Source of the DNA: an uncultured Gammaproteobacteria bacterium
GTDB lineage: Bacteria > Pseudomonadota > Gammaproteobacteria > Eutrophobiales > Eutrophobiaceae
Assembly (NCBI GenBank): GCA_938084745.1
Contig: CALKEZ010000003.1
Location: 52,388-116,387 of the forward strand
Direction: 5' to 3'
DNA: 64,000 nt
Shown here piece by piece: positions 30,401 to 39,400 of this stretch. Position 1 is the first letter of the stretch. Each line of letters begins with the position of its first letter. The position numbers are program-made.

Positions 30401-33400
30401 AATGTCGTCCTGTCATACTAATAAATGAGTAATTTAAATAATCAGCATGGTCAAATACTCACCTGCATTTTTTGCAGGTGCGTGCCGGGAGTAATTCACC
30501 TAGAATAGCCTTTTTATAATATCTGCCATTTGTTATGAATAAGATGATACAAAGATTATTCGACAATGAATCACCGTCTGCCATGTTGGCTTTCGCACCT
30601 TTTTTTCTATTGCTTACTTCGTATGAGACTGGATTCAATCTTGCATTGACAGCAGCTGTGCAGTTATTGATTGTTACACTAATGCTGTTCTGCTTACGTA
30701 ACTTGATTCCGGCAGATATGCGGATTCCCATTGTGATCATTATCAGCGTGACGGTTATGTTGATAAGCAGGATGGTACTCAATGCCGAGGCTTATTCATT
30801 TATAGCTGTATTTGGTCTGTTGTTTCCTTTATTGATGGTGAACAGTCTGGTTTTATCACTAGGCATCACAGTTTTATCCAGTCAGCAATATAAGGCGATT
30901 GTTCTGCGCCTCTTTGTTATGGTGATCGCGTTCTTTCTTTTATTTATATCATATGGATGGTTGAAAACATTTTTTTCGACTATCTCAATTAGCTCATCGC
31001 CGGCGGGTTGTTTTTTTGTTGCCGCTGTATTGTTCTCAATAATCAATTTTCTAAAAAGTAATACCCGAACTGATTAAGTCATTAGAGTAATTAACTGTGA
31101 ACAAGGAAAAACGAACACGCATATTTGAAAAATTACGCAGACAAAACCCTTCGCCGACAACAGAACTAATATATAAAACACCGTTTGAATTATTAATCGC
31201 AGTTATTCTTTCAGCACAAGCGACTGATGTTGGTGTTAATAAAGCCACGCAAAAATTGTTTGCCGTTGCGAATACTCCCGAGGCTATTTATGCATTAGGT
31301 CTGAAGCGACTTAAAACCTACATCAAAACGATAGGTCTTTATAATAACAAGGCAAAAAATATAATTGAAACCTGCAATATCCTGCAGGAAAAATTTAATA
31401 GCAGGGTTCCTGAAGACAGGGAGGCACTGGAAAGCCTTCCCGGAGTCGGTAGAAAAACAGCAAACGTTATTTTAAATACGGCTTTTGGTGAACCGACTAT
31501 TGCGGTTGATACACATATTTTTCGAGTGTCTAATCGTACCGGCATAGCGCCGGGAAAGAATGTAAACCAGGTTGAACAGCGACTAATGAAATTTATTCCT
31601 GATGAATTTAAAAAAGATGCGCATCATTGGCTTATACTGCATGGTAGATATACCTGTATTGCCCGGAACCCGAAATGTGATAGCTGTGTGATATTTGATG
31701 AATGTGAGTGGAAAGACCGCAATAAGTATGCAAAACAGTCATGAACAGGCGTAAAATGCGAATGTAATTATATTTTATCAATCAATTAAAAATATGTTTG
31801 TACAGGATCGAAATGAAGCGCGCGATTACTTTTACCTGGTATGGGATAAGTACAGGCAAAAACGCCCACTGGAACCGATAGAAGCGATCATTGCTGATGT
31901 GATTGTGGAGCACCCGGAATATCATCATTATCTTGAAGAAAAAGAATCCTCCAAAGAAAATAATTTCAGCCCTGAACAAAATGAATCAAATCCTTTTTTA
32001 CATATGGGGATGCATATTGCATTGAAAGAACAGGTTAGCGCGGATAGGCCGACGGGTGTTAATGCGGCATTTAAAAAAATAATGACAAAATCGGTTTCTG
32101 TGCATGATGCTGAACATAAGATGATGGAATGTCTCGGGCGTATCTTATGGGAAGCACAACGTAACCAGAGCTTACCCGATGATGATATGTATCTTGAGTG
32201 TTTACACAAGGCTTGCTAATGGTTAAACGTAATGTTTATAGCTTGTTCGAAAAAAGTGAATCTCATTCACTGGAAGAGCAACTTGCATTACTGGCAGAAG
32301 TGTCACAAGGCTTTTCCAGTACGCTGGATATTTCTCAAACGCTGAGAAATGCAATTGAACAATTCATGGAGTACATGAATGCAGAAGCTGCATCAATCTT
32401 TCTGTTGGAAAAAGATACTGCGGAACTGGTTTGCGCTGAATGTGCCGGTCCGGTAGATATCACGGGTTTAAGGTTATCCTCAAAAAAAGGCATTGTTGGT
32501 AAAACAGTTACAACGCGTCGTAGTCAGATGATTTCAGATGTGCAAAGTGATCCGGATTTTGCAAAGACCGTTGATATGGGATCCGGTTTTAGAACGCGTT
32601 CGATACTTTGTGTTCCCTTGATTGTTAATAATGTTTGTATCGGTGCTCTTGAACTCCTGAATAAAAAGAATGACGACTTATTTGGTGATCAGGATAAGCA
32701 TCTTTCCATGGCCTTAGCGTCATATGCTGCCCTTGCTATTAATAATGCACGCATGGCAGATGCGTTGGTAGAGCAAGAAAGAATGCGTAAAGAGCTCGAA
32801 TTGGCCAGGGAGATTCAGCTCGATCTATTACCAAATATCTCGGATATCACAAATTTCCCTGTCAATGGCATGAATGTTCCGGCGTTGGAAGTATCTGGCG
32901 ATTTTTATGATTTTTTTCAGCGCGATGATGGATTAATTTATTTCAATCTGGCAGATGTTTCCGGAAAAGGCATGAACGCTGCCATGTTAATGGCGAAAGC
33001 AAGTAGCTTGCTGCATCATCTCGCCAAGAAGATTGATGATCCAGGAGAACTGTTGGCAAGAGTCAACGACGAAATATGTGAAACTGTGTCGCATGGTATG
33101 TTTATAACCATTGTCTCCGGTTTCATTGACACAACTACCTGTACGATACGGTTTGCCAATGCGGGTCATCAACCACCGTTATTCCATCACAAGTCAGGAA
33201 AATTTCAAGAAATAGAAGCACAATCGCCGCCTGTAGGCATACTTCCCGGAACAGAATTTCCTGTATCTACTATTCAACTTGATGGTGGTTCGGTCTATAT
33301 ATTTACAGATGGTGTCACTGAAAGTATGGATGAGGAATTGAAATTGCTGGATGTTGGCGGCTTGATTAAGCTGATAGAAGAAAATTCAGAAGTAACTGCA

Positions 33401-36400: not shown

Positions 36401-39400
36401 CCCAACATTTCACTGATGTGACTAAAAATACACTAAAACCGATGCTGGAAAACATCAGTGCTCAAATTGAGAAATCAAATATGGTTAATAAGGTCGATGT
36501 GTTGATAAATAACCTGAACCAGACATCGCAAGATTTGCAAAAAGTATTTAATTCACAAAATCAGGAAAACCTGAGCACATTTCTCAATAATATGAGTGAT
36601 GCTTCGACCGGCATGAACGACCTGGTTGCGAACATTGATGTTACCAGACAATCTATGGATGTCCTTTTGAGTAACATTGATAATGTCATTGGCGATGTTA
36701 ATTATATGCTTGAAGATAATGACGGAAGAATGAAGGCTTCTCTTATCGATCTACAAAAGACCTTGTCGGTCATATCGACGCATATAGATTCCATCACAAA
36801 TCATCTTGAAGGAAGCAGTCGTAATATGCATGAGTTCACACGCCAGATTAAAGAAAACCCCAGTTTGTTAATCCGTAGCGCAGCCCAACCGGACAAGGCT
36901 GAATAATAATGCAGAATCGAATTATTCTATTATGCTGTTATATATTCCTTTCTGCATGTTCCAGTCAGTCACCATTGCCAACAGATCATTATTATCGACT
37001 ACCGGAACTCACAGGAATTAGTCCTGATGAACAACGTGTCAGTACGATTAGTGTGATTAAGTTTCAGGCAGATGGATTGTATAAAGAAAGAGCAATCGTC
37101 TATTCAGAAAATGAAGTTGAACTGCAGCAGTATCATTATCATCATTGGGCAGATTCTCCAGCACGATTATTACAAGAACGTTTGGCGCAAACATTAAGAA
37201 TGGCAAATGTTTCGAAGATGGTGCTGACTACGTTTGAGGGTAATAGTGAGTTAATAATAAATGGACAATTAAAGGCTTTCGAACGTACAAAGAATGCTAA
37301 TCATGACAGTGCAACTATTTCATTACATCTACGTGTTGACGATAACCTGGGTGGGTTACCTGTTTTATATAAGGAATATAATCAAACCGTCGGCTTACGA
37401 GATTCGACTATTGCAGGGCTGATTGATGCGTTTAATACAGCGATAAATTCGATTTACCACGACTTTTATATCGATTTGAAAGCCGTGTTACTGAAATAAT
37501 AATTTTCAAGCCGAAATATATTAAAACTCTCGAATATATGGATCGGCTTATGCCGCAGAAAACTCCATTTTGATACCCGCGAGCTCAATTAAATCACTAT
37601 CTTTTAACTGATAAGCCTTGGCACCTATTTGTTCGCCATTGACGACTGGAAAATTATTACCTTCAATGTGTGTGAGGAAATAGCCTTGAGGTCGGCGAGA
37701 AATAACAGCAACCTGAGTGCCCGGTTTACCCAAGGTAATTAAAGCCTTGGTTAATTCCAGTTCTTTGCCCGCAATAGGTCCGTTTAGGACGGTCAGGCGG
37801 CCTAGTGGCATGCCACCACCGGCAGGCGCAGCGGCTGCCGCAGGAGCAGATTGGACGGCTTTTTCAGCAGCTTGGGCTGCAGCCACAGCGGCACTGGCAG
37901 AACCGGGTTTGATGATCATGGTTTTTTCAAAATCATCATCATCAGCGGTAGCAAGTTCATTGACATACTTCAGTTCATGTTTGCCGATAGCGATAACATC
38001 ACCGTCTTTAAGTGCATGTTTCTTAACGAGTTTTCCGTTAACGTAACTGCCGTTAGTACTACCAAGATCTTCCAGAAAAGAATCATCCAGTATGGTAATG
38101 ACCAAAGCATGCTTTCCGCTAACAGCAAGATTGTCTATAGGTATGTCATTGTCAGGCTTGCGCCCGATGGTCAACCGTTCCTGATTGAGTTCGTATTCGC
38201 CTTGAACGACGCCATTCATGCTCAGAACTAACTTCGCCATTGCTAATTCCTATCCCCGTATTTCATTTAATAAAACGACTTTTAATTTTTGTTAAAAAAC
38301 CCGTGGGCGAAGAAAACTCTTCATGGACACGCACCAGTATAATTGAGGTGTTATCCTTGCCCCCTCTTTTGTTCGCAAATTTCACTAATTCATCTGCTGT
38401 TTGTGCAAGATTAGCACTATATTTACTTAGGGTTAAGTGAATTTCTTCATCTTTTACCATATCTGTTAATCCATCCGAACAAAGCAGGTAAATATCACCG
38501 GGTAAAACAGCTTCTTCGACGACATCAACATCAACACCGGCCTCGATTCCCATTGCACGAGTCACCAGATTTTTAGGGGTGTTGGCATGTGCTTCTTCTG
38601 AGGTATACAGACCTCGGTCAATCAGTTCCTGAATTAACGAATGATCTTTTGTGATTTGTTGTAACTCATTGTTTCTTATTCGGTATAGTCGCGAGTCGCC
38701 GACATGTGCGATAGATAAAATATTGTTATGAAATAGGCCAACGACGATAGTTGTGCCCATGCCCTGACATTGAGAATCAGCCTTGGCGGTGCTATAAATT
38801 ACTGAATTTGCATGGATTATAGCGTCACGAATGAGTATAGATTCATTACAAAAACCAGTGCTTTCATCAATTTGTCCGCGTTTGATTTTTTTTAAGCCAT
38901 TATTTATACCATACAGAATATTCGTGGCGGCCAGCGCACTGGCAACTTCTCCTGCCTTGTAGCCACCCATGCCATCAGCCAAAATAACTATGCCATTACG
39001 AACATCAGTAATCGTACTATCCTCATTATGAGGCCGTTTCTTCCCGACATCAGATTGATTTACGATTTCAAGTTTTGTTGACAGATCCATTATTTATTAT
39101 TTTTTTATAATTTTCAGGTAGTTACGTAAATCTTGGGCAAACTCCTGGCCTGATTGGTAGCGATTTTCAGGTGTTTTCGCCAATACTTTATCTATCATCT
39201 CACTAATACCCGGTTTAGTCTCAATCAGGCCTTTACGCAGTCCTATTATTTCAGGATGTGGTTCATTTGCAATGCAAAACATTAATGACGCCATGGAATC
39301 GCCTTTAAACGGTAATCGCCCGGTTAATAGTTGATACAGCATAACGCCGAGTGAGAATATATCCGAACGCCCATCAATATGTTTCCCTACAAGCTGTTCT

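What the first reader, a model, noticed from the sequence alone, without database searches (positions are those of the whole stretch)
32219..37499. Partner-switching module (GAF-PP2C, RsbW-like kinase, phosphorylatable STAS) in one operon with an MlaE-MlaF-MCE-PqiC-like transporter, with no sigma factor
Seen in the sequence:
- Seven same-strand genes are tightly packed. The spacings are an ATGA overlap at 33496-33499 (phosphatase/kinase) and a 30-nt gap before the STAS gene. The STAS gene then overlaps the MlaE-like permease by 8 nt (34268-34275). Gaps of 5, 9 and 2 nt follow, leading to the ATPase, the MCE protein and the lipoprotein.
- The STAS protein keeps the SpoIIAA/RsbV phospho-acceptor context (VSYIDSSGVASL).
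- The kinase has the N and G boxes. The phosphatase has a GAF sensor domain.
- No sigma factor or other usual partner-switching output lies nearby.

Established:
- In E. coli Mla, the STAS protein MlaB binds and regulates the MlaF ATPase.
- Partner-switching modules can drive non-sigma outputs (Bordetella BtrU/W/V, Vibrio fischeri SypE/SypA).

Inference: this STAS protein is a phosphorylation-gated MlaB analogue. A GAF-sensed signal would then switch an MCE-type envelope lipid transporter on or off. I do not know of a described example of this wiring, but I cannot search to confirm that.
Basis: partly seen in the sequence, partly recalled or inferred. Interest (0 to 1): 0.7.

Follow-up and report, generated by a model that had tools for sequence, protein, structure and literature searches.

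The report
Phospho-switch operon coupled to lipid transporter
A serine kinase, a sensor phosphatase and their small STAS target protein sit in one operon with an envelope-spanning lipid transporter across more than 100 related bacterial loci, which suggests, without proving it, that these bacteria gate lipid transport by phosphorylation.

Summary
Seven tightly packed + strand genes (32219-37499) encode GAF-PP2C, an RsbW-like kinase, a SpoIIAA/RsbV-type STAS with the DSSG phospho-acceptor, MlaE, an MlaF-like ATPase, an MCE protein with a helical needle, and a PqiC-like lipoprotein. No sigma factor lies in the 64-kb window.

The transporter matches the Brucella 'Mpc' (Mla-Pqi chimeric) type described in 2025.

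- **Conservation:** starting from the permease, 64 of 67 metagenomic relatives have the STAS directly upstream. The module recurs in about a dozen unrelated genomic contexts in Gamma- and Betaproteobacteria, including cultured Endothiovibrio diazotrophicus.
- **Variable input:** the sensor changes between lineages (GAF, HDOD, PP2C-kinase fusion).
- **Same slot:** most sister permeases carry a STAS domain fused to their N-terminus.
- **Live switch:** Ser54 and the kinase motifs are invariant.

Against an exclusive link, 25 of 78 related species lost the transporter but kept an intact switch, with no faster STAS evolution, and three loci show the reverse.

The phospho-gated MlaB-analogue idea has good comparative support but no biochemical proof, and the switch probably has another output too. 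No prior description was found. I rate it a new variant of a known kind.

The parts
31794..32219 (+). DUF1841 gene. Its stop overlaps the PP2C start by 1 nt (TAATG). It belongs to the conserved backbone of this clade and is probably co-transcribed, but it is not part of the mobile module.
   Evidence: Pfam DUF1841, 179 bits. Junction read. Present in most backbone loci but absent from distant module loci.
32219..33499 (+). Input phosphatase: an N-terminal GAF sensor domain plus a PP2C/SpoIIE (RsbU-type) Ser/Thr phosphatase.
   Evidence: Pfam GAF 53-55 bits and SpoIIE 145 bits. Motifs SGDFYD, DVSGKG, TDGVTE and DDIT are in the translation. In other lineages it is replaced by HDOD-PP2C or by a GAF-PP2C-kinase fusion.
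33496..33912 (+). RsbW-like serine kinase (HATPase_c_2, 138 aa). It shares an ATGA overlap with the phosphatase gene.
   Evidence: Pfam 93 bits. Best solved relative is B. subtilis RsbW, E=8e-13. E48, N52 and H56 are invariant in 137/137 orthologues, D83 in 139/139, and GGLG in at least 138/139.
33943..34275 (+). Single-domain STAS protein of the SpoIIAA/RsbV type (110 aa). The predicted phospho-acceptor Ser54 sits at the N-cap of helix alpha2.
   Evidence: ant_ant_sig 68 bits, above its cut-off; mlaB_1 28.9 bits, below its cut-off of 90. AF2 model pLDDT 92.3. Foldseek top hits are TM1442, RsbV and SpoIIAA at TM 0.82-0.88, with MlaB first at rank 39. D53-S54-S55 are invariant in 148/148 orthologues.
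34268..34275 (+). The 8-nt overlap ATGCCTGA between the STAS stop and the MlaE start, which suggests translational coupling.
   Evidence: Sequence read. The same -8 spacing occurs in 75 of 123 loci, and 95% of loci have spacing of 20 nt or less.
34268..35080 (+). MlaE-family ABC permease (270 aa). It lacks the N-terminal STAS domain that most sister permeases carry.
   Evidence: Pfam MlaE 240 bits; TIGR00056 230 bits, above its cut-off. Of the 150 nearest cluster representatives, 99 are at least 340 aa, and 34 of 40 tested have an N-terminal STAS.
35086..35886 (+). MlaF-like ABC ATPase (266 aa). It has the LSGGM signature motif and a conserved C-terminal tail ending DEY259-L260-NRL263-TGI.
   Evidence: Best PDB matches are the A. 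baumannii, P. aeruginosa and E. coli MlaF proteins and M. smegmatis MceG. The tail motif is conserved in all switch-linked cassettes, altered in cassette-only loci and absent from fused-STAS cassettes.
35896..36906 (+). MCE protein (336 aa): an N-terminal TM helix, one MCE domain and a long C-terminal helical region. It is like MpcD, the 'needle' protein.
   Evidence: Pfam MlaD 45 bits plus coiled-coil-type matches. Orthologues are flagged PF28544 Helical_needle. Brucella MpcD is 331 aa.
36909..37499 (+). PqiC-like ABC-transport auxiliary lipoprotein (196 aa) with an LSAC lipobox. It is like MpcA.
   Evidence: Pfam ABC_trans_aux 39 bits; NCBIfam pqiC 29 bits, below its cut-off. The lipobox is visible in the translation.

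Best explanation
The region encodes an envelope-spanning Mpc-type (Mla-Pqi chimeric) lipid ABC transporter: an MlaE permease, an MlaF-like ATPase, an MCE 'needle' protein and a PqiC-like outer-membrane lipoprotein.

In sister systems the cytoplasmic STAS accessory subunit is fused to the permease. Here it is a separate, phosphorylatable SpoIIAA/RsbV-type protein under the control of a dedicated kinase-phosphatase pair.

**Proposed mechanism**
1. Unphosphorylated STAS docks through its alpha2 face on the MlaF-like ATPase, as MlaB does in E. coli. This permits assembly or activity of the transporter.
2. The RsbW-like kinase phosphorylates Ser54 and/or sequesters STAS, which takes STAS off the ATPase.
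3. The GAF-PP2C (HDOD-PP2C in other lineages) removes the phosphate when its sensor domain detects a cytoplasmic signal.

**Shown here**
- Gene content and domain identities.
- Conservation and co-inheritance of the module.
- Equivalence of the STAS position to the fused domain in sister permeases.
- Invariance of the catalytic and acceptor residues.

**Inferred**
- STAS-ATPase binding.
- Phosphorylation of Ser54.
- The sign of the regulation.
- The ligand of the sensor domain.

Because many relatives keep the switch without the transporter, the switch most likely also has a second, unlinked output.
For: 1. **Near-obligate linkage when starting from the transporter.** STAS lies upstream of MlaE in 64/67 loci, the kinase in 59/61 and the PP2C in 44/48.
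2. **The module persists in about a dozen unrelated flanking contexts.** These include Betaproteobacteria and cultured Endothiovibrio. The input domain is swapped between lineages (GAF, HDOD, PP2C-kinase fusion, or no adjacent phosphatase). Only the module genes recur, in at least 11 of 17 loci; no other family recurs in more than 5, and none was identified as a sigma factor.
3. **STAS and MlaE are tightly coupled.** Spacing is 20 nt or less in 95% of 123 loci, with overlap in 76%.
4. **Switch and transporter genes are co-inherited.** KIN-MlaE distances correlate at r=0.87, against r=0.82 for MlaE-MlaF.
5. **The slot is equivalent to a fused domain.**
   - Brucella MpcE, Azospirillum, Ruegeria and IncA/IncP plasmid cassettes have long permeases. 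The N-terminal STAS was confirmed by Pfam for Azospirillum and Ruegeria and is reported for Brucella MpcE.
   - 99 of the 150 nearest permease clusters are long forms, and 34 of 40 tested have a STAS.
   - The window STAS is 25-33% identical to the closer fused domains, with D53/S54 and the alpha2 signature shared.
6. **E. coli precedent.** MlaB alpha2/Thr52 lies at the centre of the MlaF interface, and T52E weakens binding (PMC7367683).
7. **The switch looks live.** S54 is invariant in 148/148 orthologues and the kinase motifs in at least 137/137.
8. **A subfamily-specific ATPase tail.** The C-terminal Y/L helix tail recalls the MlaF extension that docks at the MlaF-MlaB groove. It is changed in the loci that lost the switch.
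Against: 1. 25 of 78 related species lost the cassette in at least 3-5 separate clades but kept an intact switch. STAS did not evolve faster there (M/P ratios 1.02-1.08), and there are no cassette-specific STAS sites. STAS constraint therefore does not depend on the transporter.
2. Three loci (L122, L123, L125) have the cassette without the switch. MlaEFD systems generally work without MlaB (PMC10665443).
3. By sequence and fold the STAS is an anti-sigma-antagonist type, not MlaB. The MlaB model scores 28.9 bits against a cut-off of 90, and MlaB is only Foldseek rank 39 or lower.
4. A near-identical STAS (65% identity) pairs with an HDOD-PP2C-kinase fusion and an unrelated downstream gene in L080.
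5. No interaction or phosphorylation was computed or measured here.
Confidence: 0.55

Rival explanations
1. The switch is a conventional partner-switching module whose real output is an unlinked protein, such as a sigma factor (RpoS or FliA type), an anti-sigma factor or an enzyme, bound by the RsbW-like kinase or by the STAS. The transporter genes merely share the transcript, so the link is co-expression and not post-translational control.
For: - The switch is retained intact without the cassette in 25 of 78 species, with no relaxation of STAS.
- L080 and L078 show the same STAS family in another context.
- STAS and kinase are closest to RsbV and RsbW.
- From my own knowledge, systems such as Shewanella CrsR/CrsA and Pseudomonas HsbR/HsbA act on targets encoded elsewhere, so the absence of a nearby sigma gene is weak evidence.
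Against: - No sigma factor or other recurrent gene accompanies the switch in the window or in about a dozen contexts.
- The cassette subfamily is almost never found without kinase-STAS (64/67).
- This permease subfamily lacks the fused STAS that its sisters carry, which leaves the free STAS as the obvious substitute.
- STAS and MlaE are translationally coupled in most loci.
Confidence: 0.22
2. Classical partner-switch geometry with the kinase as effector. The RsbW-like protein binds and inhibits the MlaF-like ATPase or MlaE, as an anti-sigma factor binds sigma. Unphosphorylated STAS acts only as its antagonist and releases the transporter.
For: - Kinase-STAS is the invariant core next to the transporter, even where the phosphatase is not adjacent (L153, L159, L167).
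- Kinase-transporter distance correlations are the highest of the switch-versus-transporter pairs (r=0.82-0.87).
- Canonical RsbW and SpoIIAB work this way (established knowledge).
Against: - The fused-STAS permeases and E. coli MlaB show that the STAS itself is the transporter-binding element in this transporter family.
- No precedent is known for an RsbW-type protein binding an ABC ATPase.
Confidence: 0.13
3. The arrangement has no functional meaning. The cassette was inserted next to a pre-existing switch and the adjacency is inherited synteny.
For: Within the backbone clade the whole region from Nth to the Ser/Thr kinase is syntenic. The cassette behaves as a presence/absence block between STAS and the next gene.
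Against: - The same 6-7 genes recur together outside that backbone in many unrelated contexts and in two proteobacterial classes.
- Gene overlaps are conserved.
- The genes are co-inherited as a unit.
Confidence: 0.05

Closest known systems
E. coli MlaFEDB with its STAS subunit MlaB (Thong 2016; Kolich 2020, PMC7367683)
   Same: - MlaE permease and an MlaF-type ATPase with the LSGGM signature and a C-terminal extension.
- An MCE protein.
- A small cytoplasmic STAS protein encoded with the transporter.
- A Ser/Thr at the position that lies in the centre of the MlaF-MlaB interface.
   Different: - The STAS here is a full-length SpoIIAA/RsbV-type protein, not the minimal MlaB, and it fails the MlaB model (28.9 bits against a cut-off of 90).
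- It precedes mlaE instead of ending the operon.
- A dedicated kinase and phosphatase are encoded with it. No kinase is known for MlaB, and its phosphorylation is an open question in that paper.
- There is no MlaC or MlaA. The MCE protein has a long needle, and the outer-membrane partner is PqiC-like.
Brucella abortus Mpc (Mla-Pqi chimeric) system MpcEFDA (EMBO J 2025, PMC12436622), with the Azospirillum, Ruegeria and IncA/IncP plasmid cassettes seen here
   Same: - The same four-gene transporter: an MlaE-type permease, an MlaF-type ATPase, an MCE protein of about 330 aa with a helical needle, and a PqiC-like lipoprotein, in the same order.
- A STAS element immediately N-terminal to the permease.
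   Different: - In Mpc the STAS is fused to the permease (374-387 aa), and no kinase or phosphatase is encoded nearby.
- Here the permease is 270 aa and the STAS is a separate gene with its own kinase and PP2C.
- The ATPase tail also differs.
RsbU-RsbW-RsbV / SpoIIE-SpoIIAB-SpoIIAA partner-switching modules
   Same: - A PP2C phosphatase with an N-terminal sensor, an HATPase_c_2 serine kinase, and a STAS with the DSxG phospho-acceptor.
- ATGA-type gene overlaps.
- The closest solved structures are RsbW, RsbV, TM1442 and SpoIIAA.
   Different: - No sigma factor in the window or in any of about a dozen contexts.
- The only conserved genomic partner is an ABC lipid transporter.
Partner switches with non-sigma outputs: Vibrio fischeri SypE/SypA, Pseudomonas HsbR/HsbA, Bordetella BtrU/W/V, and the Anabaena HenR-STAS-glycosyltransferase module (PMC13555669)
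   Same: A phosphorylation-controlled STAS protein whose output is something other than a sigma factor. An envelope-related output is also a recurring theme.
   Different: None of these is described as controlling an ABC or MCE transporter. In six full-text searches I found no paper that describes this wiring.

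Membership tests
SpoIIAA/RsbV anti-sigma-factor antagonist (phosphorylatable single-domain STAS) | Matches the family model above its curated cut-off | tested here: met
   TIGR00377 ant_ant_sig scores 68.2 bits against a cut-off of 53.45; Pfam STAS scores 63 bits.
SpoIIAA/RsbV anti-sigma-factor antagonist (phosphorylatable single-domain STAS) | Full STAS fold with a fifth strand and a C-terminal helix, and a conserved Ser in DSxG at the N-terminus of alpha2 | tested here: met
   The AF2 model has pLDDT 92.3 and topology b1-b2-a1-b3-a2-b4-a3-b5-a4. Foldseek top hits are TM1442, RsbV and SpoIIAA at TM 0.82-0.88. D53-S54-S55 are invariant in 148/148 orthologues.
SpoIIAA/RsbV anti-sigma-factor antagonist (phosphorylatable single-domain STAS) | Is phosphorylated by the cognate kinase and antagonises an anti-sigma factor | not testable with these tools
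   This needs biochemistry. No sigma factor was found in the window or in related loci.
MlaB (STAS subunit of MlaFEDB) | Matches the MlaB equivalog model | tested here: not met
   NF033618 mlaB_1 scores 28.9 bits against a cut-off of 90, over a partial match. PDB MlaB hits have E of about 1e-3 and are partial.
MlaB (STAS subunit of MlaFEDB) | Minimal STAS fold lacking the fifth strand and the last helix | tested here: not met
   The model has both extra elements. MlaB is only Foldseek rank 39-47, at TM 0.62-0.69.
MlaB (STAS subunit of MlaFEDB) | Encoded with mlaFE and binds the MlaF ATPase | tested here: inconclusive
   Co-encoding is met and strongly conserved. Binding could not be tested because no multimer prediction was available.
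RsbW/SpoIIAB-type serine kinase | HATPase_c_2 domain with N-box (E/N/H) and G-box residues | tested here: met
   Pfam 93 bits. Best PDB match is RsbW at 8e-13. E48, N52, H56, D83 and GGLG are invariant. It falls below the RsbW equivalog cut-off (68 bits against 145), so it is RsbW-like but not an RsbW orthologue.
RsbW/SpoIIAB-type serine kinase | Binds and inhibits a sigma factor | not testable with these tools
   No candidate sigma factor is linked in any context.
Mpc-type (Mla-Pqi chimeric) MCE transporter | Four genes in the order MlaE-type permease, MlaF-type ATPase, single-MCE protein with a long helical C-terminus, PqiC-like lipoprotein; no MlaC or MlaA | tested here: met
   Searches give the domains. 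The MCE protein is 336 aa against 331 aa for MpcD. Orthologues are flagged Helical_needle. Azospirillum, Ruegeria and plasmid cassettes share the architecture. Absence of MlaC and MlaA was checked only within the operon and the window.
Mpc-type (Mla-Pqi chimeric) MCE transporter | Permease carries an N-terminal STAS domain | tested here: not met
   The window MlaE is 270 aa with no STAS. The STAS is instead a separate overlapping gene. The permease is about 40% identical to the alphaproteobacterial forms.

The most novel reading that the evidence does not exclude
This may be the first natural example of a partner-switching phospho-relay that directly gates an ABC transporter. A sensor PP2C and an RsbW-like kinase would toggle Ser54 of a free-standing STAS subunit. 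That would switch an envelope-spanning MCE lipid bridge on or off within seconds, without new transcription.

It would also imply that the fused or MlaB-type STAS domains of other Mla and Mpc systems are regulatory sites. It would answer the question left open by the MlaFB structure paper, namely whether the STAS subunit is phospho-regulated and by what.
Probability: 0.5. Interest if true: 0.78.

Novelty: new variant of a known kind. Interest (0 to 1): 0.65.

Why it matters
How bacteria regulate phospholipid traffic between their two membranes is largely unknown.

The 2020 MlaFB structure paper noted that MlaB Thr52, the phosphosite-equivalent residue, sits in the MlaF interface. It named phosphoregulation as an intriguing possibility, but no kinase is known for MlaB.

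This module supplies a natural system in which the kinase, the phosphatase, the STAS and the transporter are encoded together. It is conserved in more than 100 loci and is present in at least one cultured organism, Endothiovibrio diazotrophicus. The hypothesis therefore becomes directly testable.

If true, it would add ABC and MCE lipid transporters to the outputs of partner switching. It would also give a handle for switching envelope lipid transport on and off experimentally.

Tried and rejected
1. **Relaxed constraint on STAS after cassette loss.** Relative-rate tests in three clade comparisons gave M/P ratios of 1.02-1.08, no more than the backbone genes. A per-site comparison found no cassette-specific sites. 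This is a negative result, and it counts against an exclusive STAS-transporter role.
2. **Sigma factor nearby.** Pfam scans of 56 of the 57 ORFs of at least 140 aa in the 64-kb window found none. The one ORF not scanned lies inside another gene on the opposite strand. Clustering of flanking ORFs in 17 distant loci found no recurrent non-module family.
3. **Promoter and terminator scan.** Hits were at chance level, so it was uninformative.
4. **Plasmid collection searched with the STAS.** This gave only one weak hit, in Runella.
5. **P0382 as a natural STAS-MlaE fusion inside the module family.** Rejected, because the sequence diverges after residue 66 in a way typical of a frameshift.
6. **First comparison with alphaproteobacterial fused STAS.** Identity was only 17%, which suggested an unrelated lineage. 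This was revised after the closer fused forms gave 25-33% identity with the same alpha2 signature.
7. **AlphaFold-Multimer of STAS with the ATPase or the kinase.** The tool predicts single chains only and returns no coordinates or PAE.
8. **Whether cassette-less genomes carry the cassette or a MlaB-less Mla system elsewhere.** I could not check this because whole MAGs are not retrievable. Indirectly, the permease-seeded scan found no relocated cassette lacking the switch apart from the three in-situ deletions.

Full report
**1.

- The PP2C and kinase genes share an ATGA overlap at 33496-33499.
- A 30-nt spacer precedes the STAS gene.
- The STAS stop and the MlaE start overlap by 8 nt, ATGCCTGA at 34268-34275.
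- Gaps of 5, 9 and 2 nt follow.

Pfam and NCBIfam confirm each domain assignment:

| Gene | Assignment |
|---|---|
| 32219-33499 | GAF + SpoIIE/PP2C |
| 33496-33912 | HATPase_c_2, best NCBIfam match RsbW |
| 33943-34275 | STAS, anti-sigma-antagonist model above its cut-off |
| 34268-35080 | MlaE |
| 35086-35886 | ABC ATPase, best NCBIfam match MlaF |
| 35896-36906 | MlaD/MCE with a long helical tail |
| 36909-37499 | ABC_trans_aux (PqiC-like) lipoprotein |

One detail is new. The upstream DUF1841 gene overlaps the PP2C start by one base (TAATG), so transcription may start further upstream. No terminator-like site above chance lies between the genes.

Pfam scans of 56 of the 57 ORFs of at least 140 aa in the 64-kb window found no sigma factor. 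The one ORF not scanned lies inside another gene on the opposite strand, and four scanned ORFs had no Pfam match.

**2. What the parts are**

*The STAS.* It is a SpoIIAA/RsbV-type protein and not an MlaB.
- It passes the anti-sigma-antagonist model (68 bits against a cut-off of 53).
- It fails the MlaB model (28.9 bits against a cut-off of 90).
- Its best solved relative by sequence is the phosphorylatable TM1442 (E=3e-12). MlaB matches are marginal.
- An AlphaFold2 model (pLDDT 92.3) has the full topology, with Ser54 at the N-cap of helix alpha2 plus the extra strand and helix that MlaB lacks.
- Foldseek ranks TM1442, RsbV (in its RsbW complex), SpoIIAA and RsfB first (TM 0.82-0.88). MlaB first appears at rank 39 (TM 0.62-0.69).

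*The kinase.* It is closest to B. subtilis RsbW (E=8e-13).

*The ATPase.* It is closest to solved MlaF proteins and to mycobacterial MceG. It carries the LSGGM signature that the MlaFB paper reports as typical of MCE-linked ATPases.

*The transporter as a whole.* The four transporter genes match the Brucella 'Mpc' (Mla-Pqi chimeric) system described in 2025 (PMC12436622). Both have an MlaE-type permease, an MlaF-type ATPase, an MCE protein of about 330 aa with a helical needle, and a PqiC-like outer-membrane lipoprotein.

**3. Comparative genomics starting from the STAS**

A scan of species-representative genomes returned 80 loci, all from uncultured Gammaproteobacteria except one Propionivibrio MAG. 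A tblastn synteny table shows the following.
- The backbone Nth-DUF1841-PP2C-kinase-STAS ... FHA-PP2C-Hanks kinase is conserved nearly everywhere.
- The four-gene cassette is present in 53 loci.
- It is absent in 25 loci that keep the intact switch.
- Two further loci are truncated.

On a backbone tree the cassette is ancestral and was lost in at least 3-5 separate clades. One of these is L009, a close relative at 88% STAS identity.

After loss, STAS does not evolve faster. M/P distance ratios are 1.02-1.08, within the range of the other backbone genes. No site is conserved only where the cassette is present, and the alpha2 and alpha3 motifs are invariant in both groups.

A CHASE2 nucleotide cyclase gene of about 750 aa (748 aa in L014 and L047, 750 aa in L009) follows STAS or the lipoprotein in many relatives but not in the window.

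**4. Comparative genomics starting from the permease**

An independent metagenome scan returned 80 loci at 58-93% identity.

| Gene upstream of the permease | Loci with it / loci with enough upstream sequence |
|---|---|
| STAS, directly upstream | 64 / 67 |
| Kinase | 59 / 61 |
| PP2C | 44 / 48 |

The more distant loci lack the Nth/DUF1841/FHA backbone altogether, so the module persists in other genomic contexts. The input varies while the core kinase-STAS-MlaE-ATPase-MCE-lipoprotein stays constant:
- HDOD-PP2C;
- a GAF-PP2C-kinase fusion;
- no adjacent phosphatase.

Clustering the flanking ORFs of 17 distant loci found only the module genes recurring.

Six more Pfam-labelled loci show the core kinase-STAS-transporter module in unrelated flanks. 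Five carry all seven genes; the complete 2.5-Mb MAG (L167) lacks an adjacent phosphatase and a full-length lipoprotein gene. The others include Zoogloeaceae and Betaproteobacteria MAGs and the cultured Endothiovibrio diazotrophicus.

Over 123 loci, STAS and MlaE are 20 nt or less apart in 95% and overlap in 76%. Pairwise distances of switch genes and transporter genes are as well correlated as those among the transporter genes themselves, for example KIN-MlaE r=0.87. The module was therefore inherited as a unit.

Three loci (L122, L123, L125) have the cassette directly after DUF1841, with no switch.

**5. The STAS slot**

In Brucella the Mpc permease carries an N-terminal STAS domain. I confirmed the same fusion by Pfam in Azospirillum and Ruegeria; an enterobacterial plasmid cassette has a similarly long permease (385 aa) that I did not scan.

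Of the 150 nearest 50%-identity cluster representatives of the window permease, 99 are at least 340 aa. Of 40 tested, 34 have a Pfam STAS at the N-terminus, with consensus DLxxVxxxDSxGxAxL.

The window STAS is 25-33% identical to the closer fused domains. It shares with them the invariant Asp53-Ser54 and the alpha2 signature.

A STAS immediately N-terminal to the permease is therefore the norm in this transporter family. In the module family it is a separate gene that comes with its own kinase.

In E. coli, alpha2 of MlaB with Thr52 lies at the centre of the MlaF interface, and T52E weakens binding. The authors explicitly leave MlaB phosphoregulation open.

**6. Is the switch live?**

- Asp53-Ser54-Ser55 are invariant in 148/148 orthologues.
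- Kinase residues E48, N52 and H56 are invariant in 137/137.
- Kinase residue D83 is invariant in 139/139.
- The GGLG box is kept in at least 138/139.

The ATPase has a subfamily-specific C-terminal tail (LLNR...[AD][DE]Y[LM]xRLT) that is conserved in all switch-linked cassettes. It is altered in two cassette-only loci and absent from fused-STAS cassettes. It recalls the MlaF extension whose Tyr261/Leu265/Leu266 helix docks at the MlaF-MlaB groove. This is an analogy and was not tested.

**7. Interpretation**

The best-supported reading is a phospho-switchable STAS subunit that controls an Mpc-type lipid transporter (confidence about 0.55). The comparative evidence for a functional link is strong.

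The mechanism is inferred, including binding, the phosphosite, the sign of regulation and the signal. The repeated survival of the switch without the cassette shows that the switch also does something else. The main rival is that an unlinked target is the real output and the transporter is only co-expressed (about 0.22). A kinase-as-effector geometry (about 0.13) and meaningless synteny (about 0.05) are less likely.

**8. Novelty**

Six full-text searches found no description of a kinase/phosphatase-linked STAS with an MCE or Mla transporter. A 2021 review of STAS-only proteins does not mention Mla, MCE, ABC transporters or lipids at all.

Partner switches with non-sigma outputs are known, and so is STAS control of MlaF. 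The combination appears to be new, so I rate it a new variant of a known kind. The literature library is incomplete, so an earlier mention cannot be excluded.

Noticed in passing
L014:8379-10625, L009:8506-10758, L047:11601-13847 (no counterpart in the window): A CHASE2 + class III nucleotide cyclase gene of about 750 aa (748 aa in L014 and L047, 750 aa in L009) lies on the same strand. It directly follows STAS in cassette-less loci, or follows the lipoprotein in cassette-bearing loci. It is present in 25 of 35 evaluable cassette+ and 8 of 21 evaluable cassette- backbone loci. It could supply a cyclic-nucleotide ligand for the GAF domain of the phosphatase, but that is speculation.
   Followed up: partly
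window 37548-40443 (- strand): A convergent FHA protein, a second PP2C (Stp-like) and a Hanks-type Ser/Thr kinase form a cluster immediately downstream. The cluster is conserved in the backbone clade whether or not the cassette is present. It is a second Ser/Thr phospho-signalling system next to the partner switch.
   Followed up: partly
window 41057-42466 (- strand): A 469-aa HDOD-domain protein. HDOD is the alternative sensor domain fused to the module's phosphatase in other lineages (L139, L147, L160, L168, L169).
   Followed up: no
window 31794-32221: The DUF1841 gene is translationally coupled to the PP2C gene (TAATG). In the three cassette-only loci DUF1841 sits directly upstream of MlaE instead, so it stays put whichever block is deleted.
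   Followed up: partly
L080:5860-8827 and L078: A 713-aa HDOD-PP2C-kinase fusion is followed by a STAS 65% identical to the window's, with the same alpha2 motif. A 169-aa protein with no Pfam match then overlaps the STAS stop by 4 nt. There is no transporter. This is a possible alternative output for the same STAS family.
   Followed up: partly
L147:2177-3561: Upstream of one HDOD-type module lie an FHA-like protein (clustered with FHA proteins) and a receiver-HATPase_c_2 protein, which is a second RsbW-like domain fused to a response-regulator receiver.
   Followed up: no
L167:13543-16359 and L169:5578-6717: Patatin-like phospholipase genes lie within a few kb of the module in two unrelated contexts. 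This may hint at a lipid-related neighbourhood, or it may be chance.
   Followed up: no
P0382 (representative protein, 324 aa): An apparent STAS-MlaE fusion inside the module family. Its sequence diverges after residue 66 and re-enters MlaE, which most likely reflects a frameshift or assembly artefact and not a real fusion.
   Followed up: partly
window 47492-56388 (- strand): A Tad/Flp-type pilus cluster: TadE-like protein, TPR protein, two T2SSF proteins, a secretion ATPase carrying an N-terminal FHA domain (51023-52711), a secretin, and RcpC. Three adjacent large ORFs (56885-60812) have no Pfam match.
   Followed up: no
window 30535-31077 (+ strand): A short (180 aa), weakly matching Rnf/Nqr-type membrane protein stands alone before nth. 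It looks like a remnant or divergent member of an Rnf cluster.
   Followed up: no
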